Source: an uncultured Bacilli bacterium
Lineage (GTDB): Bacteria > Bacillota_I > Bacilli_A > RF39 > UBA660
Assembly: GCA_944363925.1 (NCBI GenBank)
Contig: CALVVS010000001.1
Coordinates: forward strand, 450 to 64,449
Direction of reading: 5' to 3'
Length of the DNA stretch: 64,000 nucleotides
Translations under genes and position numbers: made by a program
Notes under the pieces: model-generated
Databases searched by the model: none
Told to the model about the DNA's origin: nothing
The model's input: the letters and a program-made list of their open reading frames with translations, nothing else
Shown here: piece after piece, positions 46,941 to 63,229 of the stretch
Position numbering within the stretch: the stretch's first letter is position 1
How the letters are laid out: every line of letters begins with the position of its first letter

Positions 46941-46968
46941 AAAATTTCCTTAAAATATAAGGAAATTA
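46941..46968 (-). terminator. Rho-independent terminator of the tRNA-Thr gene
   Basis: aatttcctta-tatttt-aaggaaatt hairpin plus T-run on the minus strand. Confidence 0.7.
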
Positions 46969-46977
46969 ATTACAAAA

Positions 46978-47051
46978 TGGTGCCGCAACGGAGAATCGAA
47001 CGCCGATTAAAGCCTTACCATGGCCTCGTAATACCTTTATACTATTGCGGC
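46978..47051 (-). tRNA. tRNA-Thr (anticodon GGU), CCA encoded
   Basis: Minus strand GCCGCAA..AGGCC-AUGGUAA-GGCUU..UUCGAUU..UUGCGGCACCA. 7-bp acceptor stem, T-loop TTCGATT, anticodon loop with GGT. Consensus promoter TTGCAA-17-TATAAT at 47054-47100. Confidence 0.7.
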
Positions 47052-47112
47052 ATAATCAAATTATATAATATTTTACTGCCTATTGCAATAAAAATACCAT
47101 ATAATTTAAAAT

Positions 47113-48483
47113 TTATTTCAACTTGTCAATAAGCCCAGTAAATTCATCTTGAATTTCTTTTAACCTATCTTCAGTCGAAGCCTCAAACCTAACCGTCAAA
47201 TCTGGTCCTGTATTGCTTGCCCTAACCAAAGCCCATCCATCAGCAAACATAACCCTAATTCCATCAACTAAAGAAAAATCGTAATTTTTACTTTTGGCAT
47301 ATTTAACCACATTAGATACAATATCAAACTTATTATCATCAGTCACTTTAATTTTAATTTCCTCAGTCGAATAATAATGTTTCAAACCCACAAACAACTC
47401 ACTTACCTTCTTATCAGTGTGTGAAACAAGCTCAATAATCCTAAGAATACCATATATTCCATCATCAAAACCTAAATACCTGTCTTTAAAAAACAAATGT
47501 CCAGAATACTCTCCTCCAAAAATCAAACCATTTTCATTAACATATCTTCGGCAATATACACTGCCTGTTCTATTCATACAAGGCTCTAATCCAAGCCTTT
47601 TAATCTCATCAATCAAAGAAAGTGAACACTTAACATCAAACACACCTTTACGAACCTTCATCAAAGGCGCTAAATCACGATAAAATAAAGCCATAATTAA
47701 ATCAGCTGGAACAAACTTTCCATCGTCTAAAACAAGTCCACATCTATCAGCATCCCCATCTACAGCCACACCTAAATCATAGCCAAGTTCTTTAACCTTT
47801 TGACCTAAATCAAATAAATTATCCTTAACCGCCGGATCCGGAACATGATTTGGAAAATTAGAATCACTTTCACAATACAAAAGCTCATAATCAATATTAA
47901 AATGTTTTAAAATATCTTTAATAAATAAACTTCCTGTCCCGTTTCCACAGTCCACCACTACCTTAACTCTTCTTTCACCAAAATTTAAAGACTTCTGCAA
48001 ATTTTCAAGATATGCTTTAAATACATCCACCTCTATAAGCTTTCCAGCTCCAGAACTAAAATTATACTCATCCAAAAATTTTTTAAAACTCCTCAAATCA
48101 TCGCCAAATAAAGAATCATCTTTCAAAGTAGACATTTTAAAACCATTATACTCCTTCGGATTATGACTAGCCGTTACCATAATTGCTGACTGAACATCAT
48201 AATATATCTTCGCAAAATTATGCATCGGTGTCGTAACCATCCCTAAACTAACTACATCCACTCCACTATCTAAAAGACCCTTAACTAAAGCCGGATAAAT
48301 AACCTCATGACTTTTTCGGTTATCATGCCCCGTAATAACCTTATCTTGCCCAAGATTTCTTATGTAACTGCCAAAAGCCTTACCAATCGTATAAGAAACA
48401 TCCTCATCTATATCACTTTCATAAATTCCTCTAATATCATACTCTCTAAAAATATCTTCATTAATGCTGTGAGTTATCTTCAT
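47113..48483 (-). CDS. Phosphohexomutase (phosphoglucomutase/phosphomannomutase family)
   Basis: Active-site TASHNPKEYNGFK and metal-binding DGDADR. Confidence 0.88.
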   Translation of the reverse strand: MKITHSINEDIFREYDIRGIYESDIDEDVSYTIGKAFGSYIRNLGQDKVITGHDNRKSHEVIYPALVKGLLDSGVDVVSLGMVTTPMHNFAKIYYDVQSAIMVTASHNPKEYNGFKMSTLKDDSLFGDDLRSFKKFLDEYNFSSGAGKLIEVDVFKAYLENLQKSLNFGERRVKVVVDCGNGTGSLFIKDILKHFNIDYELLYCESDSNFPNHVPDPAVKDNLFDLGQKVKELGYDLGVAVDGDADRCGLVLDDGKFVPADLIMALFYRDLAPLMKVRKGVFDVKCSLSLIDEIKRLGLEPCMNRTGSVYCRRYVNENGLIFGGEYSGHLFFKDRYLGFDDGIYGILRIIELVSHTDKKVSELFVGLKHYYSTEEIKIKVTDDNKFDIVSNVVKYAKSKNYDFSLVDGIRVMFADGWALVRASNTGPDLTVRFEASTEDRLKEIQDEFTGLIDKLK

Positions 48484-48593
48484 TTTCCTAACCTCCTAAT
48501 ATAATTATATATTACTTTTTTTAAAATCACAAATATATCTTTACACATCATAATTTAAAACCATATTAAGTATAATATGATGAGGTGATAAAA

Positions 48594-49649
48594 GTGAAAA
48601 ACACTTTCAAATTACTTTTAACACTCCTAATAGTGAGCCTAATATCAATTATTATATATTTAAAATTCATCAAAAATAATTCTATTGAAATACCAAAAAT
48701 AACCTTAAATGGAAAAAACATCATCACCTTATATCAAGGACAAACATATCAAGAGCCAGGATATAAAGCTACCGATGAAAAAGATGGAAACATTACAAAA
48801 AAAGTCAAAATAACGGGACAAGTAAATACAAATAAAATAGGAACATACGAATTAATATACACCGTAACCAACTCAAAAAAAGAAAGTGCGAAAGCTCATA
48901 GATTTATAAAAGTCATTAAAAATAAAACCATAAATTATAAACCAGAATATGATAACATTGATAATAAAACTAGAGGCTGGTGGGCCAATAATAAATTTGA
49001 TGGCAAAAGACCATCTGGTGGAGCTGATATAAATGAATTAAAAAAATATGATGCTTTCTATATGGGACCTGACGAAAAAGTCTTATATTTAACCTTTGAT
49101 GAAGGCGCATTAGAAACATATGTTAAAGAAATTGTCGATGTTTTAAATAAAAATAACGTCAAAGCCACTTTCTTCCTATGTCAAAAATTTATGGAAACTA
49201 ACCCAGAACTAATAAAACAAATGGCCAACACTGGTCATACTATTGCTAATCATACATCTCATCATCTAAACATGCCTACCCTTGCCACCAAAGAAAACTT
49301 TAATAAATACCTAGAAGAAATCAAAAATGTTGAACAAACCTACTACAAAATAACTGGAAAAGAAATAGAAAAAATATATCGAGACCCACGCGGTGAATGG
49401 AGCTATAGAGATTTACAAATAATAAAAGATTTAGGATATAAAACTTACTTCTATAGCGCTTATTATATGGACTTTGGTGAAAACCTATCCAAAGAAGAAG
49501 CCTTAAATGAATTAACCAAAAGAGTTCATAATGGAGCAATATATCTAATTCACCCCAAAAACAAAGGAAATTATCTTGCAATGGATACCTTTATAAAAAA
49601 CATGAAAAAACAAGGATACACATTTGACCTTGTTAAAAATATAAAATAA
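48594..49649 (+). CDS. Membrane-anchored polysaccharide deacetylase (NodB domain) with an Ig-like (DUF5011-type) domain
   Basis: TM anchor, Ig-like segment (..YKATDEKDGNITKKV..GTYELIYTVTNS), NodB motifs TFDEG, HTIANHTSHH. Confidence 0.8.
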   Translation: MKNTFKLLLTLLIVSLISIIIYLKFIKNNSIEIPKITLNGKNIITLYQGQTYQEPGYKATDEKDGNITKKVKITGQVNTNKIGTYELIYTVTNSKKESAKAHRFIKVIKNKTINYKPEYDNIDNKTRGWWANNKFDGKRPSGGADINELKKYDAFYMGPDEKVLYLTFDEGALETYVKEIVDVLNKNNVKATFFLCQKFMETNPELIKQMANTGHTIANHTSHHLNMPTLATKENFNKYLEEIKNVEQTYYKITGKEIEKIYRDPRGEWSYRDLQIIKDLGYKTYFYSAYYMDFGENLSKEEALNELTKRVHNGAIYLIHPKNKGNYLAMDTFIKNMKKQGYTFDLVKNIK

Positions 49650-49659
49650 CCCTTTATCA

Positions 49660-50862
49660 CTATGGAATTCTTAACACTTGACCTATCATTAATGTATTAC
49701 TCGTAAGACCATTTAAATCTTTTAAAGTATTAACTGTCGTTCCAAACCTATTAGCAATACTCCACAAGCTATCGCCACTTTTAACCGTATATGTATTACC
49801 ATCACTAGAAACTTTTAAAACCTGACCAATACTCAAATTATCACTAGTAAGTCCATTTAAACTTTTAAGCTCCGCTACCGTCATACCATATTTATTCGCA
49901 ATATTCCATAAACTATCGCCTGATTTAACAACATAAGTATTGCCAGAAACATTATTAGATAGACCATCAGATACCTTTAAAACCTGACCAATACTTAAAT
50001 TATCGCTAGTAAGTCCATTTAAACTTTTAAGCTCCGCTACCGTCATACCATATTGATTAGCTATCTTCCATAAACTATCACCTGATTTAACCGTATATGT
50101 ATTACCATCATTAGAAACATTAGGTATCTCCAAAATCTGACCAACACTCAAATTATTACTTGTAAGCCCATTTAAACTTTTAAGCTCATCCACACTAATA
50201 CCATATTGATTAGCTATTTTCCATAAACTATCACCGCTTTTAACTACATAATAATTATCTCCACCAGGTAAACTAGGAATATTCTCTCCATTAGCCGTTG
50301 CTATTACAGCATCGACAACAGCATCAACATATTCCTTATAATTATTTTGAATTTTAGCCAAATCCTCAGGATTATCAATAAAACCATACTCAACAATTAC
50401 TGGATGAGTATTACTCCCAGTATTCCTATGAATAAAATAATAATCCTTAGAAGTATCACTAGGAAGTCTTCTTTGATAAAACTTTCTCATCTTCTGTCCA
50501 GCATTTCCAAGTGCCTGTAAAATATTTGAAGCAAGAGTATCATCATCCCTAAGTGCATAGATAACCTCTGCCCCTTCTGCCCCTTGCGTTGCACTACCAG
50601 CAGCGTTAATATGATTAGAAATAATCACCACATTGGGATTATCACCATAAGCCGCCAAAATTCTATTAACTCTCTCAGTCGGTGAAACCGTCTCATCAAT
50701 CGAACGCACTATAGTCACCGGTACACCTCTTTTTTGAAATTCATCATACATATAATTCGCAATCATTAAAGTCAAATCTTTTTCTCTAACACCAGAACTA
50801 CTCACAGCTCCAGGATCACTGCCACCATGACCAGCATCAATTACAACCTGTAAATTATTCAT
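49660..50862 (-). CDS. N-acetylmuramoyl-L-alanine amidase (Amidase_3) with four C-terminal LysM repeats
   Basis: VIDAGHGGSDPGA N-terminus. 4x (YxVKSGDSLWxIANxYG..V..LKxLNGLTS..L.IGQ.L). Confidence 0.88.
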   Translation of the reverse strand: MNNLQVVIDAGHGGSDPGAVSSSGVREKDLTLMIANYMYDEFQKRGVPVTIVRSIDETVSPTERVNRILAAYGDNPNVVIISNHINAAGSATQGAEGAEVIYALRDDDTLASNILQALGNAGQKMRKFYQRRLPSDTSKDYYFIHRNTGSNTHPVIVEYGFIDNPEDLAKIQNNYKEYVDAVVDAVIATANGENIPSLPGGDNYYVVKSGDSLWKIANQYGISVDELKSLNGLTSNNLSVGQILEIPNVSNDGNTYTVKSGDSLWKIANQYGMTVAELKSLNGLTSDNLSIGQVLKVSDGLSNNVSGNTYVVKSGDSLWNIANKYGMTVAELKSLNGLTSDNLSIGQVLKVSSDGNTYTVKSGDSLWSIANRFGTTVNTLKDLNGLTSNTLMIGQVLRIP

Positions 50863-50888
50863 AACTTCACCCCTACATTAAAATATGT

Positions 50889-50915
50889 AAAAGTAGGCAT
50901 TTAGTTACAAAAAAA
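50889..50915. repeat. 27-bp element AAAAGTAGGCATTTAGTTACAAAAAAA (copy A), just downstream of the metG terminator and upstream of the amidase gene
   Basis: Exact match to 55538..55564. Confidence 0.9.
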
Positions 50916-50973
50916 GATGTTTAAACACCTTTTTAATTATTTTTTCAAATTAACACTATTTAAAAATTACTAG

Positions 50974-52620
50974 TTATTTATGCTTAACATGTGAAACTTC
51001 AGAATTATTTTTATCATCTATTCTTTCATACAATAATGATAAATTATTTACTTGCATATCTCCAGAAATTTTTTCTTCTTCCCACTTAAATTCTGATAAA
51101 TCAAGCATATCTTTAATTTTCTTAGAAGCATCAGGCAAAATAGGAGCAATCAAATTAGCAATATTAGCCATCATATAAACACATGTATAAGTAGTATTAT
51201 TAAAAGCATTTATATCATTTTTCACTTGATTCCATGGTTGTTGACTATCATAATACTTATTACCCAAACTAATATAATCTAAAATGGAAATAACAGCTTT
51301 CCTAAATTCGCCAGCTTCAATATGACTTCCAACTAATTTATAGATTTTAGAAGTAGTATTAACAATATTAGAATCTATAATTCCTTCTGTAATTTTACCC
51401 TCAAATTTTTTACAAATAAATGATAAATTTCTATTTACAAAATTTCCTAACATACCAACCAAAAATTTATTATGACATTGTACAATTTCCTCATAAGAAC
51501 AATTAATATCGTCTACCTCAGGGCCGTTAAATGCGAAATAAAACCTAATCGTATCTTTATCAAAATACTCTAAAAGTTCATTAGCTGTAATTAAATTACC
51601 TTTACTTTTACTCATTTTTTCATTATTTAAATTAACATAAGCACTAGAAATAATATAATCAGGTAATCTATACCCTTTGTTTAGTCCTGTCAAAAGAGCC
51701 GGAAAAATTGTAGTATGAAATGGTATATTATCTTTTCCGTGAACATAATAAGTAATTAATTTTTCATTAGAATCTGATAAAAATTCATCAAAATTAATAT
51801 TTTTTTCATTAGCAACTTGAGTGCCAGCAGAAAGATATCCAAGTACGGCTTCTATCCAAACATAAATTCTTTTATCATCATATCCTTCTACAGGTACTTC
51901 AACTCCCCAATTTAATTGTCTTGTTGCAGCTCTATCAATTAATCCAAGATTAAGAAACTTTTGTGCTTCACCAACAGCATTTTTTCTCCAGTGTTCGCCA
52001 TTTTTATTAATCAATTCTTGCAACACGGATGTAAATTTAGATAAAGCAAAATATAAATGATTGTTGTTTTTAGTAACGCAGTTAGTACCACAAGTTTTAC
52101 AATGTTTATCAAGTACTTCAGAACTGTCTAATGAAGCATTACAAACTTCACATTGGTCACCAGTACTTTTACCACCACATATTGGACAAGTTCCAACTAT
52201 CTCTCTATCCGATAAAAATGTCTCGCATGTTTCACAGTAATCTTGAGGTACTTCTTTTGCATAAATATAGCCATTTTCAATTAACTTTTTAAAATTATCC
52301 TGAACATATGATTGATGGAAATTATCCATTGTATTTGAATACAAATCATATTCAAACCCTAAATTATCAAAAGTCTTTTTAAATTCTTGATGATAATATG
52401 TAGCAATTTTCTGAGGAGAAACACCTTCTTTTTTCGCCCTTTCAGTTATAGGTGTACCATGACAATCAGAACCAGATACATAAATTACATTATCTCCATT
52501 GCCTCTAAAATATTTTGCTAAAATATCCCCTGGTAATAATGCCGCCAAATGACCAACATGCAAAAAATAATTAGCATACGGCCATGCTCCTCCAATAAAA
52601 ATATCTCTCTTTTGTATCAT
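50974..52620 (-). CDS. metG: Methionyl-tRNA synthetase (short form lacking the C-terminal tRNA-binding domain)
   Basis: HVGHL (HIGH), KMSKS, two zinc knuckles (CETCE..CPICGG ; CEVC..CKTCG). Confidence 0.93.
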   Translation of the reverse strand: MIQKRDIFIGGAWPYANYFLHVGHLAALLPGDILAKYFRGNGDNVIYVSGSDCHGTPITERAKKEGVSPQKIATYYHQEFKKTFDNLGFEYDLYSNTMDNFHQSYVQDNFKKLIENGYIYAKEVPQDYCETCETFLSDREIVGTCPICGGKSTGDQCEVCNASLDSSEVLDKHCKTCGTNCVTKNNNHLYFALSKFTSVLQELINKNGEHWRKNAVGEAQKFLNLGLIDRAATRQLNWGVEVPVEGYDDKRIYVWIEAVLGYLSAGTQVANEKNINFDEFLSDSNEKLITYYVHGKDNIPFHTTIFPALLTGLNKGYRLPDYIISSAYVNLNNEKMSKSKGNLITANELLEYFDKDTIRFYFAFNGPEVDDINCSYEEIVQCHNKFLVGMLGNFVNRNLSFICKKFEGKITEGIIDSNIVNTTSKIYKLVGSHIEAGEFRKAVISILDYISLGNKYYDSQQPWNQVKNDINAFNNTTYTCVYMMANIANLIAPILPDASKKIKDMLDLSEFKWEEEKISGDMQVNNLSLLYERIDDKNNSEVSHVKHK

Positions 52621-52726
52621 ATTATTTACCCTCTCACAAAATATTTATAACTAAATTACTACATTATTAAATGCCTTGTCAACACATTTTTAACATTTTT
52701 TACATTTTTTTAGCAATTTTAACATA

Positions 52727-52769
52727 CAAAAAAAGACTGTCATTGAACCATAAGTTACAGTCTTTTTCT
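52727..52769 (-). terminator. Rho-independent terminator after the S66 peptidase gene
   Basis: agactgt..acagtct stem with a U-run on the minus strand. Confidence 0.65.
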
Positions 52770-52782
52770 AACATTTTTAATT

Positions 52783-53823
52783 TTAATCACTCATTGGTTT
52801 TTCTAAAAAAATTATCTCTTTATTATCAAGATCTATTCTTATTTTTTGTCCCATAGGAAAAATACACATTGGAGCTGTATGTCCAATATTTACATTATAT
52901 AAAATTGGCAAATTTGGTCTACCAGCTTCTTCGGCAATTAGTCTTTTATACACTTCTTTATACTCTTCATAATATTTCTCGTCTTGAGGTTTTCCAATGA
53001 CAATTCCATTAATTTCATCAATTATACCTTGAGCAATTAAGTTTCTTAAATAATATTCGATGTAATCAGGTTCAACTTCATCTTCACTAGTTTCTAAAAA
53101 TAATATTCTATCTTTCCATTCACTTTTCTTAGGCCATATTTCTGTACCAATAAACATTGGAAACACATCAAAACAACCACCAAGCAAATATCCTTCTACA
53201 CTTCCTTTACCTTGTAAAACTTCATATCCATGTTTTTCGTCATTCATTTTTCTTTTAACATTATCATATTCAGCATTAGACCAATCTAAAAATTCACTAG
53301 TCCACTTTGAACTTGAAGTAATTTTAATATTTTCCTTATTTTGAAATAACACTTCGTCTACATACTTTTTTGTATATTCGTGCATTTTAAAATTTTCAGC
53401 AAATTCACCCATTACTGATGGTCCATAATATGATGTTACTCCAGCCTTATACATCATAAAATGATTAACTGTTGTATCAGAATAACCCATAAACACTTTA
53501 GGATTATTTTTGATAGTTTCATAATCAATATATGGTAAAAGCCTAACGGTATCAGCTCCACCTATATTACATATAATACCTTTTATAGATTTATCTTTAA
53601 TAGCATCCATAAAATCTTTAGCACGAGCTTCCGGATGTTTAGAAAGATATTCACTTCCTTTTAAAGCATTAGGCATAGTAACAACAGTTAAGCCAAACAC
53701 TTCTTCAAGTCTTTTTTTTCCTTGTTCATACCTATGTTTAAATAGTTTATCACCAGCTGTACCACTTGAAAGACTAACAATAGCGACTTTATCGCCTTTA
53801 CATAACTTTTTTGGTTTAATCAT
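52783..53823 (-). CDS. S66-family serine peptidase (LD-carboxypeptidase / MccF-like)
   Basis: Nucleophile motif FMGYSDTT, and the His region NIGHTAPM. Confidence 0.85.
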   Translation of the reverse strand: MIKPKKLCKGDKVAIVSLSSGTAGDKLFKHRYEQGKKRLEEVFGLTVVTMPNALKGSEYLSKHPEARAKDFMDAIKDKSIKGIICNIGGADTVRLLPYIDYETIKNNPKVFMGYSDTTVNHFMMYKAGVTSYYGPSVMGEFAENFKMHEYTKKYVDEVLFQNKENIKITSSSKWTSEFLDWSNAEYDNVKRKMNDEKHGYEVLQGKGSVEGYLLGGCFDVFPMFIGTEIWPKKSEWKDRILFLETSEDEVEPDYIEYYLRNLIAQGIIDEINGIVIGKPQDEKYYEEYKEVYKRLIAEEAGRPNLPILYNVNIGHTAPMCIFPMGQKIRIDLDNKEIIFLEKPMSD

Positions 53824-53832
53824 AAACTTTCC

Positions 53833-53949
53833 TCACTTTTTCAAATTTTTCATTGTATTTTTTTGACTTTTTAAATCATTAAATAAATTATTACCAACAA
53901 AATTAGTAAAACCATCAACTGGATTACTTAAAATATAAATTTTTTTCAT
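53833..53949 (-). CDS. 38-codon sORF between the two S66 genes. Its start overlaps the stop of the GNAT::S66 gene (ATGA) and its stop sits inside the RBS of the downstream S66 gene.
   Basis: MKKIYILSNPVDGFTNFVGNNLFNDLKSQKNTMKNLKK. It is not in the ORF track (under 60 aa). Confidence 0.3.
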   Translation of the reverse strand: MKKIYILSNPVDGFTNFVGNNLFNDLKSQKNTMKNLKK

Positions 53950-55379
53950 TGTAATACTTCCTCATTAATAATCAACTTACTATTATAACCAGTTAAAGTA
54001 ACTTGGGCACCTACCGGAAGAACACAGTTAATACCAGCATGACCAAAATCATGACATTTTACTATCGGAAAATCATAATCAATTAATTCCGGCAATACTA
54101 AATCTTCTAATTTTACATTTGCTTCATTAATATAATCAGCTAATAGAATTCCTTTAACTCTTTGCATTATTCCTTTTTTCTTTAATATATTAATGTTTTT
54201 AATAATATCTTGTTTGCTAGAAGCACCTTCTAAATCTTCCAAAAAAAGTATAATATTTTCATCTTTAGGAACATATCCCATTTCACATAGCATTGTAAAA
54301 CATGTTAAATTTCCGCCTATTAACGTACCAGTTCCAACACCATCTTTCAATGTTTTCCAAGCACTTTTTTGTGGGATAGCGCCAATTTTTTTATCTAAAA
54401 ACATATTAACAAAACATGTTTCATTATATTCATCATTTTTTATAAATCGTTTAAAATCAGACATATGAAATGTTATTAATCCCGTCATAGCATATATAGC
54501 ATTAAGTAAAAATGTACCGTCACTAATTCCAGTAAAAACTTTAGGATTATTTTTAATAATGTCAAAATGGATATAATTAAGTAAATAACTACAAAATTGG
54601 CCGCCTTTAGCACAAAATATACCATTAATTTTTGGATTTTCAAACATAGCTTCTATATCATCCACTTTTTCTTTTATTTTAATTTCTTTATCATTTGATA
54701 TTGAATAAGCATTTTTACTTATTTCTACTTTAATTCCTAATTCATTACATTTAATAATAGATTCTTGAATATCATTTTTATTACTCTCTTTTAAATTAGT
54801 TGATGGAGCAATAACACCAACTGTAGAGCTTTTTAAATTTTTAGGTTTTAGCTTTGTACTTCCTAAATTAATCCAATAACGCTGAAATTTATTGCCTTTA
54901 TCATCATTTACGGTATTTTCTAATTTTCCACCAACACTTATAATTGCTTTTGCAGAAGCAATATTTTTTTCATTACATGTTAATAATACATATTGAATAT
55001 TTAATTTTTTACATATATCTAAAGCAAATTGCAAAGAAAGTTCAGCATATCCTTTTTTTCTCTCACTTGGACAAGTACTTCCGGCAATATGTCCACCATA
55101 TAAATAAAGTCCTTTATCTAGTTTGTGACAAACTGTAAAAGTCCCTATTACTTTATCATCACTTTTACGATATAAAGCATATAAACTTTTAGAAACACCA
55201 AATTTACCTTCTTCAAATTGTTTTAAAACTTCTAACCATTTTTCAAAACTTATATTTGTATCAAATCTTAAATCCCCGATAATTTCATTTTCACCGTTAT
55301 TATAAAAATCATTTCTATATGACAAAAACTGTTTTTCATATTTTTTTGAAGGCTTTATCAAAATAATATCTTTATTCAT
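53946..55379 (-). CDS. Fusion protein: N-terminal GNAT (RimL/Acetyltransf_3-like) acetyltransferase plus C-terminal S66 LD-carboxypeptidase/MccF-like peptidase
   Basis: N-terminal roughly 170 aa: ..HIAGSTCPSERKKGYAELSLQFALDICKKLNIQYVLLTCNEKNIASAKAIISVGGKLE (GNAT core). C-terminal: FTGISDGTF nucleophile motif and DFGHAGIN. Confidence 0.8.
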   Translation of the reverse strand: MNKDIILIKPSKKYEKQFLSYRNDFYNNGENEIIGDLRFDTNISFEKWLEVLKQFEEGKFGVSKSLYALYRKSDDKVIGTFTVCHKLDKGLYLYGGHIAGSTCPSERKKGYAELSLQFALDICKKLNIQYVLLTCNEKNIASAKAIISVGGKLENTVNDDKGNKFQRYWINLGSTKLKPKNLKSSTVGVIAPSTNLKESNKNDIQESIIKCNELGIKVEISKNAYSISNDKEIKIKEKVDDIEAMFENPKINGIFCAKGGQFCSYLLNYIHFDIIKNNPKVFTGISDGTFLLNAIYAMTGLITFHMSDFKRFIKNDEYNETCFVNMFLDKKIGAIPQKSAWKTLKDGVGTGTLIGGNLTCFTMLCEMGYVPKDENIILFLEDLEGASSKQDIIKNINILKKKGIMQRVKGILLADYINEANVKLEDLVLPELIDYDFPIVKCHDFGHAGINCVLPVGAQVTLTGYNSKLIINEEVLQ

Positions 55380-55537
55380 ATTTTATTTTCTCCTTTAATT
55401 TTTTAACTTGTTCAGTTATTTTTTATAAATTGGCTCTTTTTTATCAAAACAGCTTTATTTAAAAAATAGTCGTATTTTTAAATAACCTATCACTTACTTT
55501 TTCATCACTGACTAAATAATGATACATATATTATCTA

Positions 55538-55564
55538 AAAAGTAGGCATTTAGTTACAAAAAAA
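55538..55564. repeat. 27-bp element AAAAGTAGGCATTTAGTTACAAAAAAA (copy B), just downstream of the leuS terminator
   Basis: Exact match to 50889..50915. Confidence 0.9.
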
Positions 55565-55592
55565 CTATATATATAATTAAAACTATATATAG
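55558..55592 (-). terminator. leuS rho-independent terminator
   Basis: CTATATATAG..ATATATATAG hairpin followed by T7 on the minus strand. Confidence 0.6.
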
Positions 55593-55656
55593 TTCTTTTA
55601 AAACAAACTTTAAATAACTCTAACCATTTTAAAAATTTCTTCATAATTTTTTATAA

Positions 55657-58050
55657 TCACTTAACCACAATATTTACTATCTTATTTGGAATAACAATTT
55701 CCTTAACAATATTTTTGTTTTCAATATACTTTTTAATATTATCTATTTTATATACTTTATTTAAAATACTATTTTTATCTTCATTAATCTCAGTCTCTAT
55801 ACTTCCTCTTAATTTACCATTAATTTGAATACCTATAGTAATTTTATCATCCAATACTTTGTTCTCATCATATGTTGGCCAAGATTCATACGCTATTGTA
55901 TTATCATGACCTAACATCATCCAAATTTCTTCAGTAAGATAAGGTGCTATAGGATTCAAAAGCTTAATAAAATCTTCAGCCATATTTTTAGGAAAAACTT
56001 CTTCCTTATAAACCGCATTTATAAAAATCATCATTTGACTAATAGCCGTATTAAAATTCAAACTTTCAAAATCCTTCGTAACCTTTTTTACAGTTTGATT
56101 ATAAACCTTCTCTAAATTTGGATTATTTTTATTAACAATCTTATCAGAAGTATATAACCTATAAATTCTTTCTAGAAAACGCTTCGCCCCTTCTACTCCC
56201 TCTGTACTCCAAGGCTTATCTGATTCTAAAGGTCCCATAAACATTTCATATAACCTAATCGTATCAGCTCCATAATTTTCAACAATATCATTTGGATCAA
56301 CAGAATATTCTGGATATCTTTTTCCCATTTTAATACCATTAGAACCTAAAATCATCCCTTGATGCACTAACTTTTTAAACGGTTCTTTAAAAGGCGTAAT
56401 ACCCTTATCGTATAAATAATGATTCCACATTCTAGAATATAAAAGATGTCCAACCGCATGTTCTGGTCCTCCAACATATAAATCAACTGGCATCCAATGC
56501 TCTAATAATTTTTTATCTGCTAATTCGTTATTATTATTTGGATCAATATATCTTAAATAATACCAACTAGAGCCAGCCGAACCAGGCATCGTCGAAGTTT
56601 CTCTTTTCACATCTTTTCCTTTATAAGTTGTATTAACCCAATCCTCAGCTTTTGATAAAGGAGATTCCCCCGTCTTGCTTGGAGAATAATCTTTAAGTTT
56701 TGGTAAAATTAATGGTAAATCCTCTTTATCTAAAATACCTATTTTACCGTCTGGATAATATACTATCGGAATAGGTTCACCCCAGTATCTTTGTCTAGCA
56801 AAAATCCATTCGTGAATTTTATAATTTACTTTTCTCTCTCCAAACTTTTTCTCTTCTAACCACTCTATCATTTTATTAATAGAATCATCCTTATTAAGTC
56901 CATTTAAAAATTCCGAATTAACATGTATGCCATCACCTACATATGCCTCCTTAGAAATATCACCGCCATCAATAACTGGTATAATCTCTAAATCAAACTT
57001 TTTAGCAAATTGATAATCTCTTGAATCATGAGCCGGCACCGCCATAATAGCACCCGTACCATATGTTGCAAGCACATAATCACTCACCCATATAGGAATT
57101 TTCTTATTATTCACTGGATTAATTGCATAAGCACCCGTAAAAACACCTGTTTTATCCTTATTTAATTCAGTTCGCTCCAAATCAGATTTTAATGAAGCTT
57201 CTTTTTGATATCCCTCTACTTTATCCGCACAATCATCTTTTACTATCTTTGATAATAATTTATGTTCAGGAGATAAAACACAATAAGTTGCCCCATATAA
57301 AGTATCTGGCCTAGTCGTAAATACTTCAAATTCTAAATCACTATCATCAACTTTAAACTTCACTTGTGCCCCAATAGACTTTCCAATCCAATTTCTTTGT
57401 ATTTCCTTAGTTGACTCTGGCCAATCAATCTCATCTAATCCAGACAAAAGTTTTTCTGCATACTTAGGTATATCAATAACCCATTGCTTCATTTTTTTTC
57501 GAACAACAGGAAATCCACCTCTCTCACTTTTTCCATCTATAATCTCATCATTAGCCAATACTGTACCTAACCCCTCACACCAATTCACTGGCATCTCAAC
57601 AATTTTAGCTAATCCATCCTTATACAACTGTTCAAAAATCCACTGTGTCCATTTGTAAAATTTTGGATCTGAAGTCGATAACTCTTTTGACCAATCATAA
57701 GAAAATCCAAGCAAATTTAATTGTTTTTTAAAAGTTGCAATATTCTTTTCAGTAAATCCATCAGGATGATTACCTGTCTTAATAGCATACTGTTCAGCCG
57801 GCAAACCAAAAGAATCCCATCCCATAGGGTGTAAAACATTAAATCCTTGCATCCTTTTCATTCGCGCAATAACATCCGTTGCCGTATACCCTTCTACATG
57901 TCCAGCATGCAAACCAACACCAGATGGATAAGGAAACATATCTAAAACATAATACTTAGGTTTTGAAAAATCCCAAACATCAGTTTTAAAAGTTTGATGT
58001 TCCTCCCAATATTTTCTCCATTTTTTTTCTATTTCTTTATAATCATACAT
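55657..58050 (-). CDS. leuS: Leucyl-tRNA synthetase
   Basis: [12 protein letters not shown] (HIGH), KMGKRYP (KMSKS), CP1 editing domain. Confidence 0.95.
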
Positions 58051-58281
58051 TAACGAACTCCTCCTTTTGTAACGATTATACCATAAATATTAAATTAATG
58101 CTAAAGCAGTCATATAATCCCTTAAATATAATTTGACATATACATTAAATATACAATTTTTACTTACATAAAGTCCCCATCTATCTTTACTTTATAACAT
58201 ATAATCAATTAATACCTATTCAAACAAGCAAACAAACATACAAAAAAGATGTATAAACATCCCTTAACTTTAAAATTAAGT

Positions 58282-59172
58282 TCAATACCACTTCTTCTTC
58301 ATTGAAAATTTTCTGTGCTTACTAAATATAATCACATCCATCTGCATAGGACATAAATGATTTAAAAAATGTAACTTCTTAGGCGCACATTTTGAGATCT
58401 TAATCACCCCACCAGTAACCAGAATATAACCATTACCAATTTTTCTAATCCCTCTAACATTCTTAGGAAAAAACTTCTTTTTAGGACTAATAATACCTCT
58501 TGTAAATTCACCCACACCAAATGGAACACATCCATCATGAGTATGACCACAAATAATTAAATCATACTTATTTAATAAAGATATACATCTTTTATCATCA
58601 CTAAATTCAGGTGAATGCACCAAAGCCACCGATGGCAAACGCTTATCAACATTCTTATAAAGTAAATCATGCTTACTAAAATCATCATAAAACTCTTTAA
58701 AATCATAATTTTTCCTGCGATAATACTTAATAGTCTCCGTATACCCCATAAGCCAAAGCTCATCATCAGAATAAACATCATTATCTAATAATGTAATACC
58801 TTGAATATTCTTTATAACCAAACTAATTTTTTCCTTATAACTACTATAATTTTCTCTATGAATATAATCGTGATTTCCTAAAACAACAAAAGTTTTTGCC
58901 ACTTTAGCTGAAAACTCAAGTAAATGCTTTAACTTAAATAAAGACTCACTATTATTAATTTCTTCTACTCTATCAATCAAATCACCAACAAAAACAATAT
59001 AATCAGCCTTTTCTTTTAAAAACTGTCTTTCTATTCTTTTTATCTTTTTAAAACTAACCAAATTACTAATATGTATATCACTAATTGCTAAAATCTTTAA
59101 ATCATCAGTAACCTTTTCATTATATAAATTAATATACCTAACTTGTAAATAATCATCAACAAATATTCTCAT
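58282..59172 (-). CDS. Calcineurin-like metallophosphoesterase
   Basis: DIH..., GDLIDR, GNHD, GHTH motifs. Confidence 0.8.
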   Translation of the reverse strand: MRIFVDDYLQVRYINLYNEKVTDDLKILAISDIHISNLVSFKKIKRIERQFLKEKADYIVFVGDLIDRVEEINNSESLFKLKHLLEFSAKVAKTFVVLGNHDYIHRENYSSYKEKISLVIKNIQGITLLDNDVYSDDELWLMGYTETIKYYRRKNYDFKEFYDDFSKHDLLYKNVDKRLPSVALVHSPEFSDDKRCISLLNKYDLIICGHTHDGCVPFGVGEFTRGIISPKKKFFPKNVRGIRKIGNGYILVTGGVIKISKCAPKKLHFLNHLCPMQMDVIIFSKHRKFSMKKKWY

Positions 59173-59184
59173 ACCTCACCCCTT

Positions 59185-59874
59185 TTAAATATTATTCACA
59201 TCAACCACCTTGTTTTCCAAATTCTTATCAACTAAAGTCTCATGAATCTTCTCCTCAGGACTATCCAAAAAGACTTCCTCAATTCTATCAACCCTACATT
59301 TTTCAGCTCTAATAATTGCCTCTAATTTTGTAGCTGCCTCCATAACCTCATCATTGACAATAACATAATTATATTTTGATAATTCATTTATTTCTTTATA
59401 AGCAGTTTCAAACCGTTCCATTACCTTTTCCTTTGATTCAGTATTACGTTCTGTAAGTCTCCTCTTAAGTTCTCTCATACTAGGTGGTAATAAAAATACA
59501 AATAAAGCCTGTGGAATTTTCTTTTTAATCTGTAAAGCCCCTTGAATTTCAATAACTAATATTACATCTTCACCATTATCTAAATGTCTTTGTACACTCT
59601 CACTAGGTGTTCCATAATAATTACCAGCAAACTTGGCATACTCAAGCATCTTATCGTCCTTAATATTCTTTTCAAACTCTTCCTCGCTCACAAAATAATA
59701 AGCCTTACCATCTTCCTCACCCTTACGCGGTTTCCTACTAGTCATCGAAATAGACTCCCATATATTTAGATTTCTTTTCTTAACCTCGTCACATACAGTA
59801 TTCTTACCACTACCAGAAGGTCCGGAAAGAACAATTAATAATCCTTGTTTCTTTGTCTTTATCATATATTTCAC
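59185..59874 (-). CDS. gmk: Guanylate kinase
   Basis: P-loop LSGPSGSGKNT, with ..YYFVSEEEF.. and ..RRLTERNTES.. regions. Confidence 0.92.
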   Translation of the reverse strand: MKYMIKTKKQGLLIVLSGPSGSGKNTVCDEVKKRNLNIWESISMTSRKPRKGEEDGKAYYFVSEEEFEKNIKDDKMLEYAKFAGNYYGTPSESVQRHLDNGEDVILVIEIQGALQIKKKIPQALFVFLLPPSMRELKRRLTERNTESKEKVMERFETAYKEINELSKYNYVIVNDEVMEAATKLEAIIRAEKCRVDRIEEVFLDSPEEKIHETLVDKNLENKVVDVNNI

Positions 59875-59905
59875 TCCCTTGAAAGAAAAGAACTGTTCAA
59901 GCAGT

Positions 59906-60196
59906 TCAATTATTTAACAATTCCTTTATTCTCTCTGGATTTTTTATCAATTCTTTAGCATCATCTACCAAAATTGGTACAACTTTCCTAAGCTCATCAC
60001 CATTAACTAAATCCATATATTCATCATTTCCATCAAAATAGCTTTTAACAACTTGATACTCATCAATGAAATCATCTTCACTTTGATTTAATCTAATCAT
60101 ATAACTATACTTACTACCATCAATTACCTTCTCAGCTATTACAAACCATTTATCATTATCATCAAACTCAACTGTTGTATATAATCCATTTTCCAT
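59906..60196 (-). CDS. Small acidic protein, DUF1292-like
   Basis: 96 aa, ..TVEFDDNDKWFVIAEKVIDGSKYSYMIRL..DEY..VKSYFDGNDEYMDLVNGDE. Confidence 0.5.
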   Translation of the reverse strand: MENGLYTTVEFDDNDKWFVIAEKVIDGSKYSYMIRLNQSEDDFIDEYQVVKSYFDGNDEYMDLVNGDELRKVVPILVDDAKELIKNPERIKELLNN

Positions 60197-60209
60197 AAAA
60201 TGCCCCTTT

Positions 60210-61769
60210 CTATTTAATTAATCCACTTTTACTAACTTCTGAAACAACATCACTAAGTTTAACAAAACCAGATGGACTTTTCATACTATCACCCAAAAGT
60301 AACACATTATTTGAATCTTTAGCTAATTCAGCCATAAATGAAGAATCATTAAGTTGCTCCTGAGTAAGCCCCATATAACTATTAGTCGCTGTATTAAACA
60401 CATCTATAGGGTTATTATTAAACCACTCATTAGAAATAACTCCATTAACATTATTCACAGTATCATAAGCATTAGTAAAAACTTGATGCCCCTCACCAAT
60501 ACTTCCATAATTTAACATAGTTTCAGTAGAAACTTTATCCGTTGTATCATCAACTGTATTAAAAGTATTATTAGCCATATTAATATTATCTGCACTAACA
60601 AAATTATTAATACCATTCACAATCTGCGAATTAGCCGCAAACAATCCAACACCAGTAATCGCAATCATTGCCGCCACAATAGCTACTTTTCTACTAATAT
60701 TAAATTTCTTAAACTTTTCTATAATTGATGGCTTAGACTCTTTTCGCTTAATCAAACGGCCCTTAATCGTTGGCATCGATTCAACTTCACTATTCGAATT
60801 AACCAAATCAGGCATATCTGGTATAACATCTAAACCCGATAAATCCTTATCAACACTACCATTAACCTCTCCAAAATCATTTGAATTATCATCCAAAACC
60901 TTGTTATGAGCCTCTACATCATCAACATTACCAACAATATCTATATTTCCATCTTTTGAAACATTAATTTTCACATCTAACCCATAAACCTTATTCGTTC
61001 CATAATCTAAATTATTTATAAGCTTTACATTTTTAAGATTATTATTTAAAAGCTTAGAATCTAAAAGTTTATAATTTTTATTTAGATAATCACTAGTAAA
61101 ATTTCCAACAATATAACAAATACCATCTTTTACAAAAACCGTATATGGAAAAGATAATTCATTAACTTTAAAATGTTTAGCTCCTATATAAGGAATATAA
61201 TTTTCTTCTTTAACCTCAGCACCTTTAAAATGTTTGCCAGATTTAACCTTACTATTGTCTAAAACTAAGTCTTCATCTTTAAAATGTCTAGGTCTTGGCT
61301 TAATATCTTCCTCTTTTGATACATTTGAATTTTCATAACTCTTTAAATCAAAAAGAATATTACGACTTTGAACATATAAATCATCATAACCAGGTTTACC
61401 ATATTTAATACCATTAATTGGCATAGCCAAATAATAATTAAGTTCTAATTCTAATAACTTTCTTTGCTGAAAATAGGCCTTTTCATAATTGTCACTACCA
61501 AACTCACATAATACTTTATTAAAAACACTATTATCCTTATAACGAAAATAAAGTTCCTCTTTATTCTTGTATTTTCTTTCTAGCTCATCCATTTTATCTA
61601 AAATAGCTATCTCACCAGTAAGTTTATTAACTCTTCCTCTTTTTAAATTAACCTGTAAATTAAAAGAGGCATTGTTAGGATTTTTCTTTTGCTCTTCTTC
61701 CATAGCCTTAAGTTCTTTTTTCAAAACCTCAAGTTCTCTTTTTTTATCATTCAAATCCATAATAATCAC
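60210..61769 (-). CDS. Hypothetical bitopic membrane protein with an N-terminal coiled-coil cytoplasmic region
   Basis: KRELEVLKKELKAMEEEQKK coiled coil. Single TM (VAIVAAMIAITGVGLFAA) near residue 355. Asn-rich C-terminal ectodomain. Confidence 0.5.
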   Translation of the reverse strand: MIIMDLNDKKRELEVLKKELKAMEEEQKKNPNNASFNLQVNLKRGRVNKLTGEIAILDKMDELERKYKNKEELYFRYKDNSVFNKVLCEFGSDNYEKAYFQQRKLLELELNYYLAMPINGIKYGKPGYDDLYVQSRNILFDLKSYENSNVSKEEDIKPRPRHFKDEDLVLDNSKVKSGKHFKGAEVKEENYIPYIGAKHFKVNELSFPYTVFVKDGICYIVGNFTSDYLNKNYKLLDSKLLNNNLKNVKLINNLDYGTNKVYGLDVKINVSKDGNIDIVGNVDDVEAHNKVLDDNSNDFGEVNGSVDKDLSGLDVIPDMPDLVNSNSEVESMPTIKGRLIKRKESKPSIIEKFKKFNISRKVAIVAAMIAITGVGLFAANSQIVNGINNFVSADNINMANNTFNTVDDTTDKVSTETMLNYGSIGEGHQVFTNAYDTVNNVNGVISNEWFNNNPIDVFNTATNSYMGLTQEQLNDSSFMAELAKDSNNVLLLGDSMKSPSGFVKLSDVVSEVSKSGLIK

Positions 61770-63227: not shown

Positions 63228-63229
63228 AA

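What the first reader, a model, noticed from the sequence alone, without database searches (positions are those of the whole stretch)
52783..55379. MccE/MccF-like detoxification module (GNAT::S66 fusion, sORF, second S66 peptidase) between metG and leuS
Two S66-family peptidases (LD-carboxypeptidase/MccF-like, GYSD/GISD nucleophile motifs) sit in tandem, and the first is fused to an N-terminal RimL-type GNAT acetyltransferase. In the microcin C system, MccF (S66) hydrolyses, and the MccE C-terminal domain (RimL-like GNAT) acetylates, toxic aminoacyl-nucleotide mimics that inhibit aminoacyl-tRNA synthetases.

Finding both activities, one as a single fused polypeptide, directly between two aaRS genes suggests a self-protection or detoxification module against aminoacyl-adenylate-type antibiotics. 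A translationally coupled 38-codon sORF lies between the two peptidase genes. A role in peptidoglycan recycling instead cannot be excluded.
Basis: partly seen in the sequence, partly recalled or inferred. Interest (0 to 1): 0.6.

Follow-up and report, generated by a model that had tools for sequence, protein, structure and literature searches.

The report
Mosaic GNAT–peptidase locus beside tRNA synthetases
Two serine-peptidase genes, one fused to an acetyltransferase, really do sit between leuS and metG, but they came together by separate recent events, the small ORF is a gene scar, and a role in destroying aminoacyl-nucleotide toxins is plausible but untested.

Summary
The ORFs exist as described. 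The fusion is 53946-55379 (477 aa, GNAT + S66). The second S66 is 52783-53823 (346 aa). leuS and metG flank them.

The "module" is not an evolutionary unit.
- The fusion gene is a fragment of a conserved 8-gene cluster seen in four other metagenomic lineages: HD_4, GNAT::S66, S51 peptidase, acyl-AMP ligase, GT2, archaeal-type MAT, HprK-like, AroE-like. Decayed remnants of its HD_4 and S51 neighbours flank it here.
- The 38-codon "sORF" is a junction scar. Its head is the S51 gene's 5' end. Its tail comes from the 3' end of the gene that precedes the second S66 in relatives.
- metG is missing from the nearest relative that carries the second S66. leuS is missing from the nearest relative that carries the fusion.

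The functional idea keeps some support. The second S66 retains the MccF loop and the adenine-stacking Trp, invariant in 118 relatives. The fusion's S66 domain lacks that loop. The GNAT is a genuine but generic GNAT. S66 genes of these lineages recur beside GNATs, nucleotide-cleaning enzymes and bona fide aaRS genes of seven specificities. The ancestral cluster holds three families known to give microcin C immunity (GNAT, S66, S51). The orphan fusion is under purifying selection (dN/dS 0.16).

Verdict: partly supported. It is a rare new variant of a known kind, with function inferred only.

The parts
55657..58050 (-). leuS (797 aa), a bona fide bacterial LeuRS. Its composition is typical of the window. 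It is absent from the equivalent position in the closest fusion-carrying relatives.
   Evidence: TIGR00396 scores 1030.8 bits against a cut-off of 548. The best GTDB relatives are Erysipelotrichaceae/Bacilli at 70% identity with no shared synteny. GC3 is 0.212 against a background of 0.249±0.048. L005-7 go from metallophos straight to the fusion.
55375..55584 (-). Decayed 3' remnant of an HD_4 (RelA/SpoT-type HD hydrolase) gene, the upstream neighbour of the fusion in the ancestral cluster.
   Evidence: Translation shows ...YHYLVSDEKVSDRLFK... interrupted by stops and frameshifts, matching the C-terminus of the L008/L004 HD_4 proteins. tblastn gives 47% identity over 72 aa. blastn to L008 runs from 55540 to 53852 at 85.9%.
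54855..55379 (-). GNAT acetyltransferase domain (aa 1-175) of the fusion protein.
   Evidence: Pfam hits are sub-threshold. The R-x-x-G-x-A motif (R107-A112) is invariant. The AF2 model has pLDDT 94.7 with GNAT topology. Foldseek finds generic GNATs, with RimL 1s7n at TM 0.70 and MccE 3r95 at TM 0.69. More than 2000 stand-alone homologues exist.
53946..54842 (-). S66 peptidase domain (aa 180-477) of the fusion. It is the short type, without the MccF Trp loop.
   Evidence: Pfam S66 N scores 102.7 bits and S66 C 78.2 bits. The triad GISD / LFLED / FGHAG is conserved in all 9 fusion proteins. A gap of roughly 27 residues replaces the EcMccF loop that contains W186. dN/dS is 0.10-0.14.
53833..53949 (-). 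38-codon ORF that is a chimeric junction scar: the 5' end of the S51 peptidase gene joined to the 3' tail of the gene that precedes the second S66 in relatives.
   Evidence: MKKIYILSNPVDGFTNFVGNNLFNDLK matches the N-termini of the S51 proteins of L008/L004, with the same ATGA overlap. tblastn finds S51 residues 1-19 at 89% identity. Homology with L090 starts at 53862. No Pfam or NCBIfam hit.
52783..53823 (-). Stand-alone S66 peptidase (346 aa) of the BA3275 subfamily. It is MccF-like, with a conserved Trp loop, and is native to this neighbourhood.
   Evidence: PDB 5f1y/5f5x (B. anthracis BA3275) match at E=2e-116. SSKWTSEFLDWSN aligns with EcMccF PEKWSDESINWNE. W174, W181 and the triad are invariant in 118 relatives. 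There are 6695 homologues at E<=1e-20. dN/dS against L090 is 0.04. L090/L091 carry it at 92% nt identity next to the same amidase gene.
50952..52727 (-). Single-gene metG cassette (ORF 50974-52620, 548 aa, no C-terminal tRNA-binding domain), present here and absent in L090.
   Evidence: TIGR00398 scores 462 bits against a cut-off of 336. It matches the E. coli-type model PRK00133 (521 bits) better than the B. subtilis-type PRK12267 (282 bits). The window-L090 alignment jumps from 52728 to 50951. GC3 is 0.146, about 2 sd below background.
49660..50862 (-). N-acetylmuramoyl-L-alanine amidase with four LysM repeats. It is the immediate downstream neighbour of the second S66 in L090.
   Evidence: Pfam Amidase_3 and LysM x4. 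L090 2393-2548 is 84% identical to its N-terminus.

Best explanation
The locus is a recent mosaic, not a co-evolved module.

The 346-aa S66 gene is the resident gene. It belongs to a very large, strongly conserved subfamily (the B. anthracis BA3275 type) that keeps the MccF nucleotide-binding loop.

A DNA fragment then landed immediately upstream of it. The fragment carried the GNAT::S66 gene, about 200 bp of the preceding HD_4 gene and about 80 bp of the following S51 gene. It was cut out of a conserved 8-gene cluster. It replaced the gene that normally precedes the resident S66 and left the 38-codon junction ORF. leuS and metG are present or absent independently in the closest relatives.

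Only the GNAT::S66 gene stayed intact, under purifying selection, while its cluster neighbours decayed. The most likely function of both enzymes is therefore a stand-alone, self-sufficient one: inactivation of toxic aminoacyl- or peptidyl-nucleotide-like compounds.
- The GNAT would acetylate the alpha-amino group.
- The S66 domains would hydrolyse the aminoacyl-nucleotide amide bond through their Ser-His-Glu triad.
- This parallels the MccE2, MccF and MccG immunity enzymes of microcin C.
- The fusion would be an 'orphan immunity' gene from an uncharacterised biosynthetic cluster.

Shown: the anatomy, the remnants, the indel polymorphisms, selection, domain folds, the catalytic residues, and the presence or absence of the Trp loop.

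Inferred: the substrates and the resistance role.
For: Mosaic origin:
- blastn of the window against L008 gives 85.9% identity across 55540-53852, spanning the HD_4 end, the fusion and the S51 start.
- The remnants are visible on translation.
- Four loci carry the full cluster.
- L090 lacks metG and the fusion. L005-7 lack leuS, the second S66 and metG.

Selection and transfer:
- Fusion dN/dS is 0.16 between the two orphan copies.
- Its dS is 0.20, against 1.2-1.7 for the flanking gmk and metallophos.
- GC3 of the fusion (0.113), the second S66 (0.144) and metG (0.146) lies 2-3 sd below the window background.

Function by analogy:
- The catalytic triad is kept in both S66 domains. The second S66 keeps the W186-equivalent loop.
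- GNAT, S66 and S51 are three of the four known families of McC self-immunity enzymes (PMC8323819, PMC9239234), and all three lie side by side in the ancestral cluster.
- A census of 124 neighbours of 47 BA3275-type S66 loci found 13 GNATs, 14 aaRS-domain proteins, 4 NUDIX and 2 S51.
- Bona fide LysRS, AlaRS, TrpRS, TyrRS and CysRS lie within two genes of S66 genes in other loci.
- L105-107 carry AlaRS-S66-GNAT-TrpRS.
- S66 is also seen fused to, or overlapping, nucleotide-cleaning enzymes: Ham1 (P0314) and a UMPH-1 nucleotidase.
- Neither protein reaches the LdcA equivalog cut-off.
Against: - No activity was measured.
- The fusion's S66 domain lacks the adenine-stacking loop and has LdcA-like length.
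- The GNAT shows no specific relation to MccE2.
- No MccB-like adenylyltransferase, precursor peptide or exporter typical of mcc clusters was found. What the 8-gene cluster makes is unknown.
- Residues aligned with EcMccF N220 and K247 are not conserved. I recall these, from memory only, as binding the Asp side chain.
- The resident S66 also sits next to cell-wall genes: amidase_3-LysM in L090 and the window, a polysaccharide deacetylase in L101, and LysM/PG_binding_1 proteins in L094.
- The aaRS enrichment is modest once redundant loci are collapsed. My rough binomial estimates give p about 0.01-0.05.
Confidence: 0.45

Rival explanations
1. Both S66 proteins are peptidoglycan-peptide LD-carboxypeptidases used in cell-wall turnover or recycling. 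The GNAT domain modifies a cell-wall peptide or an unrelated small molecule. The aaRS neighbours are coincidental.
For: The S66 family includes LdcA. The fusion's S66 domain has LdcA-like length and no Trp loop. In L090 the resident S66 is directly followed by an amidase_3-LysM gene. In the window it lies in a stretch with that amidase, a polysaccharide deacetylase and a phosphohexomutase. L101 and L094 also show cell-wall neighbours. Source databases auto-annotate relatives as LdcA.
Against: NCBIfam LdcA equivalog scores are 58-66 bits against a cut-off of 378. PDB LdcA-type chains score E=1e-4 to 1e-16, against 1e-29 to 1e-36 for characterised and putative MccF-like chains (E. coli and B. 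anthracis MccF, BA_5613, Lmo1638). The two Trp of the MccF-type loop are invariant in the resident S66 family. The review PMC8323819 states that LdcA does not protect against McC, so the two subfamilies differ functionally. No Amidase or LysM family appears among the 25 most frequent neighbour families, whereas GNAT, aaRS and NUDIX do.
Confidence: 0.25
2. In its native cluster the GNAT::S66 protein is a biosynthetic or tailoring enzyme, for example removing a protecting amino acid or acetyl-capping an intermediate. In this window it is a functionless, recently stranded relic.
For: It is always the second gene of the 8-gene cluster and overlaps its neighbours. The window copy is flanked by decaying remnants. 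Its GC3 is the most deviant in the region.
Against: It is intact over 477 codons while both flanking cluster genes are destroyed. dN/dS is 0.16 between the two orphan copies (window and L005-7), with both domains constrained (GNAT 0.25, S66 0.13). The orphan form persists in at least two different genomic arrangements.
Confidence: 0.15
3. The S66 and GNAT enzymes serve normal translation housekeeping beside aaRS genes, for example clearing mis-made aminoacyl-adenylates, N-acylated amino acids or small peptides to recycle amino acids. They are not antibiotic defence.
For: The neighbouring aaRS genes are bona fide enzymes of many specificities: Leu, Met, Cys, Tyr, Lys, Ala and Trp. The short S66 P0012 sits 57 bp upstream of cysS-truB-rpsO-pnp, an ordinary housekeeping row. 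The resident S66 family is huge and strongly conserved, with dN/dS 0.04.
Against: No T-box or other shared regulatory RNA precedes the S66 genes. The fusion's own history ties it to an accessory cluster, not to translation genes. No such housekeeping role is documented for S66 enzymes in the papers read.
Confidence: 0.15

Closest known systems
MccF (S66 serine peptidase, microcin C self-immunity; E. coli plasmid mcc operon, B. anthracis MccF)
   Same: It has the same two-domain S66 fold and Ser-His-Glu triad. The 346-aa protein also keeps the catalytic loop, with the Trp aligned to EcMccF W186.
   Different: Identity to EcMccF is only 26-29%. The 346-aa protein belongs to the separate BA3275 subfamily, whose substrate is unknown. 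The fusion's S66 domain lacks the loop. No mcc operon is nearby.
MccE C-terminal domain (MccE2) / RimL-type GNAT acetyltransferases
   Same: It has the GNAT fold with an acetyl-CoA motif. Its homologues fall in Pfam Acetyltransf_3, like RimL, RimJ and MccE2. TM-scores are about 0.7 to RimL and MccE.
   Different: Similarity is generic: 14% identity, hhalign probability 23%, and many other GNATs (YncA, SpeG, RimJ) score equally or better. It is fused N-terminally to S66, whereas in MccE the GNAT is C-terminal to a decarboxylase domain.
MccG (S51 peptidase conferring McC resistance, PMC9239234)
   Same: The ancestral cluster has an S51-family gene directly after the fusion (Pfam 47.7 bits). Its 5' end survives as the head of the sORF.
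   Different: In the window only about 27 codons remain, so no S51 enzyme is made. The cluster's S51 protein is 341 aa, highly divergent (no PDB sequence hit), and was not placed in MccG clade V.
LdcA (murein tetrapeptide LD-carboxypeptidase)
   Same: It shares the S66 family, and the fusion's S66 domain has a similar length.
   Different: Scores are far below the LdcA equivalog cut-off. Similarity to LdcA structures is weaker than to MccF-type structures.
B. anthracis BA3275 'MccC family protein' (PDB 5f1y, 5f5x, 5f9m, 5jyb)
   Same: This is the closest solved relative of the 346-aa protein. It matches full length at E=2e-116 and has the same loop motif, APEWTSERLEWIE.
   Different: No function was found for it in the papers searched. 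The depositors' name, 'MccC family', does not reflect its S66 fold.

Membership tests
MccF-type S66 immunity peptidase | S66 N- and C-terminal domains with a Ser-His-Glu triad | tested here: met
   Both proteins meet this: Pfam, triad alignment to EcMccF S118/E243/H311.
MccF-type S66 immunity peptidase | Catalytic loop bearing the Trp that stacks on the adenine (EcMccF W186; PMC8323819) | tested here: inconclusive
   Met for the 346-aa protein (W181; invariant in 118 relatives). Not met for the fusion's S66 domain, which has a gap in place of the loop.
MccF-type S66 immunity peptidase | Encoded in or next to an mcc-like cluster (MccB ThiF-type adenylyltransferase, precursor peptide, exporter) | tested here: not met
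   tblastn with E. coli MccB, MccC and MccE found nothing in the window or in any of the other fetched loci.
MccF-type S66 immunity peptidase | Hydrolyses the aminoacyl-nucleotide carboxamide bond and confers McC resistance | not testable with these tools
   This needs enzyme assays and heterologous expression.
MccE2 / RimL-type GNAT | GNAT fold with an acetyl-CoA-binding R/Q-x-x-G-x-G/A motif | tested here: met
   AF2 model with pLDDT 94.7, Foldseek hits, and R107-K-K-G-Y-A112 invariant.
MccE2 / RimL-type GNAT | Specific sequence relationship to MccE2 or RimL beyond the generic GNAT core | tested here: not met
   hhalign against the MccE CTD gives probability 23% over the core only. In the profile search RimL 1s7k scores E=0.08, and no MccE chain appears up to E=1.
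MccE2 / RimL-type GNAT | Aromatic pair that clamps the nucleobase. I recall these as MccE W453 and F466, and both residues are present at those positions in the sequence fetched. | not testable with these tools
   The N-terminal region did not align and no superposition tool was available. W48 is invariant in the family, but its equivalence is unknown.
LdcA (muramoyltetrapeptide carboxypeptidase) | Reaches the NCBIfam equivalog score (NF008424, cut-off 378 bits) | tested here: not met
   65.8 bits for the fusion and 57.9 bits for the 346-aa protein.
Functional, translationally coupled small ORF | Conserved as an independent ORF of similar length in relatives | tested here: not met
   In relatives the same sequence is the start of a 338-341-aa S51 gene. 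In L005-7 only 26 bp of it remain. Its tail comes from another gene.
Conserved operon 'aaRS - GNAT::S66 - S66 - aaRS' | The same gene order in independent genomes | tested here: not met
   None of the 8 fusion loci, the 47 S66b-type loci used in the neighbour census or the 80 leuS loci has it. L105-107 have an analogous but non-homologous AlaRS-S66-GNAT-TrpRS row.

The most novel reading that the evidence does not exclude
The 8-gene cluster (HD_4, GNAT::S66, S51, acyl-AMP ligase, GT2, MAT-like, HprK-like kinase, AroE-like) would be a biosynthetic cluster for a new, non-ribosomal aminoacyl- or peptidyl-nucleoside inhibitor of aminoacyl-tRNA synthetases, made by gut Firmicutes and protected by three layers of self-immunity.

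The window's GNAT::S66 would be an orphan immunity gene spreading on its own.

The BA3275-type S66 enzymes, GNATs and extra or mobile aaRS copies that recur together would form a widespread, undescribed defence against such compounds. The metG cassette here and the decayed cysS in L005-7 would be examples of those mobile aaRS copies.
Probability: 0.2. Interest if true: 0.8.

Novelty: new variant of a known kind. Interest (0 to 1): 0.55.

Why it matters
If the inference holds, a single polypeptide would combine the two classical microcin C immunity chemistries: acetylation of the toxic aminoacyl-nucleotide and its hydrolysis. That polypeptide would be travelling as an orphan resistance gene in gut Firmicutes.

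The finding would also point to an uncharacterised gene cluster that carries GNAT, S66 and S51 side by side. Such a cluster is a candidate source of a new aaRS-targeting natural product.

The recurrent S66-GNAT-aaRS neighbourhoods would give a testable function to a very large family (BA3275 type, thousands of members) that has solved structures but no known substrate.

If it does not hold, the locus is still a clear worked example. It shows how an apparent 'module with a coupled sORF' can be an accident of insertion and gene decay.

Tried and rejected
- **Anti-phage defence:** PADLOC has no meaningful hit for any cluster protein or for the 346-aa S66.
- **T-box or other RNA regulation linking S66 and aaRS genes:** Rfam finds nothing in window 46000-64000 except a tRNA. 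In 11 related loci it finds only one T-box, before a class I aaRS in L107.
- **Promoter and terminator scans:** matches are at chance level.
- **An mcc-like cluster nearby:** no MccB, MccC or MccE homologue was found. The MccD-like hit in context A is to a generic UbiE-like methyltransferase.
- **leuS as an alien resistance copy:** its best relatives are Erysipelotrichaceae/Bacilli and its composition is typical of the window, so there is no support, although its position is polymorphic.
- **Synteny of leuS in GTDB genomes:** uninformative, because no relative is closer than 70%.
- **Exact-sequence look-ups of the window proteins:** not on record.
- **Full-length AF2 model of the fusion from 9 sequences:** too poor for domain-interface analysis (pLDDT 66.5).
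- **Primary MccF and MccE structure papers (PMC3690760, PMC3311384, PMC3122189):** not held. Residue roles other than W186 and S118 therefore rest on memory and are flagged as such.
- **Literature search for 'ScmC':** gave nothing relevant.
- **Other GNAT::S66 fusions at greater distance:** none among the best 150 of 1.84 billion representatives. Long hits are tandem GNATs or other S66 fusions.
Full report
**1. What is there**

All genes of the finding lie on the minus strand.

| Coordinates | Feature |
|---|---|
| 55657-58050 | leuS |
| 53946-55379 | 477-aa ORF (the fusion) |
| 53833-53949 | 38-codon ORF; its ATG overlaps the previous stop (ATGA) |
| 52783-53823 | 346-aa ORF (the second S66, "S66b" below) |
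| 50974-52620 | metG |

- Pfam finds both halves of the S66 peptidase fold in the 477-aa protein (residues 187-462) and in the 346-aa protein, well above the cut-offs.
- NCBIfam confirms LeuRS and MetRS.
- The N-terminal 175 residues of the 477-aa protein give only sub-threshold GNAT hits.
- A profile of this domain finds more than 2000 stand-alone ~170-aa GNATs at 40-44% identity carrying PF13302/PF00583.
- A 53-sequence alignment gives an AlphaFold model with pLDDT 94.7 and the complete GNAT topology.
- Foldseek matches hundreds of GNAT structures.

The observation of "GNAT::S66 fusion + sORF + second S66 between leuS and metG" is therefore correct as a description of ORFs.

**2. The fusion gene is a stranded piece of a larger cluster**

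A search of 5.8 billion proteins found only eight full-length fusion clusters, at 60-93% identity. An exhaustive HMMER pass over 1.84 billion 50%-identity representatives found a single representative (P0007) with both domains in one alignment. The other long hits are tandem GNAT repeats or different S66 fusions.

In four lineages (L008, L004, L003, L001/2) the fusion is the second gene of a conserved, tightly packed cluster:
- HD_4 hydrolase
- GNAT::S66
- S51 peptidase
- acyl-AMP ligase
- GT2 glycosyltransferase
- archaeal-type methionine adenosyltransferase
- HprK-related kinase
- AroE-like dehydrogenase

The window matches L008 at 85.9% nucleotide identity from 55540 to 53852. That span runs from inside the HD_4 gene, through the fusion, into the S51 gene. 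Translation shows two remnants:
- The window's 55375-55584 is the C-terminal end of HD_4, broken by stops and frameshifts.
- The "sORF" begins with the first ~27 residues of the S51 protein (MKKIYILSNPVDGFTNFVGNNLFNDLK), with the same ATGA overlap.

No other cluster gene is present anywhere in the 64-kb window.

**3. The sORF is a junction scar, and the second S66 is the resident gene**

The 346-aa protein has relatives at 97% (P0241) and many at 62-85%. In L090/L091 (92% nt identity) it is preceded, with overlapping stop and start, by a 337-399-aa protein with faint AlaRS-core similarity. It is followed directly by the amidase_3-LysM gene that in the window lies beyond metG.

Homology between the window and L090 starts at 53862, 39 bp upstream of the S66 start. 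The last ~10 codons of the sORF therefore come from the 3' end of that upstream gene. The homology then jumps from 52728 to 50951, so the 1776-bp segment holding only metG is absent in L090.

The fusion fragment thus replaced the resident upstream gene. The sORF is the chimeric junction.

**4. The aaRS flanks are not conserved**

- The closest fusion (93% aa; L005-7) sits as gmk-metallophos-fusion. It is followed by a decayed cysS pseudogene and a hydrolase, with no leuS, no second S66 and no metG.
- leuS has ordinary composition and Erysipelotrichaceae/Bacilli affinities.
- The fusion, S66b and metG all have GC3 values 2-3 sd below the window background.
- The fusion's synonymous divergence between the window and L005 (dS 0.20) is six to nine times lower than that of the adjacent gmk and metallophos (1.2-1.7). 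The fusion therefore moved between lineages after they split.
- It is nevertheless constrained: dN/dS is 0.16 overall, 0.25 for the GNAT and 0.13 for the S66 domain.
- S66b is under strong constraint, with dN/dS 0.04.

**5. How MccF/MccE-like are they?**

I fetched the E. coli mcc operon from plasmid NZ_CP009074 and aligned MccF with both S66 domains.

- The Ser118/Glu243/His311 triad is present in both.
- S66b keeps the catalytic loop (SSKWTSEFLDWSN against PEKWSDESINWNE). Its Trp aligns with W186, the residue that stacks on the adenine of processed McC according to the review PMC8323819.
- Both Trp and the triad are invariant in 118 family members and are present in B. anthracis BA3275.
- The fusion's S66 domain, and its stand-alone relatives of 291-311 aa, lack this ~27-residue loop entirely.
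- Both proteins score much better against MccF-type structures than against LdcA-type structures. Both are far below the LdcA equivalog cut-off.
- The GNAT is generic. RimL (TM 0.70) and MccE (TM 0.69, rank 46) are no better than SpeG, YncA or RimJ. hhalign against the MccE C-terminal domain gives 23% probability, over the acetyl-CoA core only.
- No MccB, MccC or MccE homologue exists in the window or in any fetched locus.

**6. Comparative context that bears on function**

GNAT (MccE2), S66 (MccF) and S51 (MccG) are three of the four enzyme families shown to detoxify processed microcin C (PMC8323819, PMC9239234). All three lie adjacent in the ancestral cluster.

I fetched 47 further BA3275-type loci, called the two neighbours on each side and scanned the 124 proteins against Pfam. 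The hits were:

| Family | Neighbour proteins |
|---|---|
| Acetyltransf_1 | 13 |
| Acetyltransf_3 | 5 |
| tRNA-synt_2c | 6 |
| tRNA-synt_1b | 4 |
| tRNA-synt_2 | 4 |
| NUDIX | 4 |
| Peptidase_S51 | 2 |

Collapsing redundant loci leaves several independent arrangements:
- AsnA-like, rSAM-like, methyltransferase, LysRS, 399-aa protein, S66.
- B12-rSAM, AlaRS, S66, GNAT, TrpRS, then a T-box and a class I aaRS (L105-107).
- S66, TyrRS (L095).
- NUDIX, GNAT, S66 (L121-123).
- S66, GNAT and GNAT, S66 (L116, L102).

The closest stand-alone relative of the fusion's S66 domain (P0012, 64%) lies 57 bp upstream of bona fide cysS. Another relative (P0022) overlaps a 5'-nucleotidase-like gene. An S66b-type protein is fused to a Ham1 NTP-pyrophosphatase domain (P0314).

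aaRS genes make up roughly 1-2% of a genome (general knowledge). On that basis, my rough binomial estimates for the non-redundant contexts are p about 0.01-0.05 for aaRS and below 0.01 for GNAT. That is suggestive, not decisive.

Cell-wall genes also occur next to S66b: an amidase in L090 and the window, a deacetylase in L101, and LysM proteins in L094. This keeps the peptidoglycan rival alive.

**7. Interpretation**

The anatomy is secure. The locus is a mosaic produced by insertion of a cluster fragment next to a resident S66 gene, plus independent gain or loss of leuS and metG. The sORF is a scar.

The function is inferred. The fusion survives intact and constrained while its cluster neighbours decayed, and it recurs as an orphan in another arrangement. 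A self-sufficient benefit such as detoxification or immunity is therefore the most economical reading, and the family-level neighbourhoods fit an aminoacyl-nucleotide substrate. Against this stand the loop-less S66 domain, the generic GNAT and the absence of any mcc-type biosynthetic genes.

I put the detoxification reading at about 0.45, peptidoglycan recycling at about 0.25, and the remaining two rivals at about 0.15 each.

**8. Novelty and score**

The GNAT::S66 architecture is rare: one 50%-identity cluster among the best hits of 1.84 billion representatives. It was not mentioned in the microcin C papers read. It is best filed as a new variant of a known kind (stand-alone or orphan MccE2/MccF-like enzymes), not as a member of the mcc system.

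Interest is 0.55. A specialist would find three things worth an experiment: the fused immunity-like enzyme, the uncharacterised cluster with GNAT + S66 + S51, and the recurrent S66-GNAT-aaRS neighbourhoods. Nothing here is demonstrated biochemically, however, and the specific "module between two aaRS genes" is an accident of recent rearrangement.

Noticed in passing
L008:421-8890; L004:2147-10616; L003:2649-11781; L001:7463-15076: A conserved, tightly overlapping cluster of unknown function: HD_4, GNAT::S66, S51, acyl-AMP ligase, GT2, archaeal-type MAT, HprK-like kinase, AroE-like. It has no PADLOC hit and no MccB. It may be a biosynthetic cluster.
   Followed up: partly
window 50952-52727: metG sits on a clean 1776-bp single-gene segment that is absent between the S66 and amidase genes of L090. 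It is an E. coli-type MetRS without the C-terminal domain and has low GC3 (0.146). It could be an auxiliary or mobile MetRS copy.
   Followed up: partly
L005:9666-9905, L006:6008-6700: Just downstream of the orphan fusion lies a decayed cysS pseudogene: a 57-codon N-terminal piece, a stop, then further CysRS-like remnants. Decay implies it was a redundant aaRS copy.
   Followed up: partly
L093:462-7038 (also L092, L097, L098, L135): A gene row of AsnA-like (342 aa), rSAM-like, UbiE-like methyltransferase (E=1e-19 to E. coli MccD, but generic), LysRS, a 399-aa protein with faint AlaRS-core similarity, and BA3275-type S66. The last two genes abut, with a 1-nt gap (the corresponding pair overlaps by 4 nt in L090/L091).
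   Followed up: partly
L107:1542-10129: A gene row of B12-radical SAM, short AlaRS, S66, GNAT (268 aa), TrpRS, then a T-box (8113-8329) and a class I aaRS. This is an independent S66+GNAT pair flanked by aaRS genes.
   Followed up: partly
window 53946-55379 vs L005:8001-9434, and flanks: The fusion's dS between the two lineages is 0.20, whereas the neighbouring gmk and metallophos genes have dS 1.7 and 1.15. Yet both copies lie downstream of gmk-metallophos. The mechanism of this exchange is unexplained.
   Followed up: partly
P0362, P0371, P0412, P0372: The GNAT family of the fusion's N-terminal domain also occurs as two or three tandem copies in one polypeptide.
   Followed up: no
P0314; P0055, P0112: Other S66 fusions exist: with a Ham1-type NTP pyrophosphatase, with a UDG-superfamily domain, and with a PF02578 (YfiH-like) domain.
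   Followed up: no
window 45685-46764; 61886-62503; 62553-64000; 46981-47051: A Fic/DOC protein with a C-terminal HTH, a pentapeptide-repeat protein next to an ABC-2 transporter pair, and a tRNA gene.
   Followed up: no
L095:5302-6870; L001:2212-3777: Large serine recombinases lie close to the S66-tyrS pair (L095) and to the 8-gene cluster (L001). This hints that these regions sit on or beside mobile elements.
   Followed up: no
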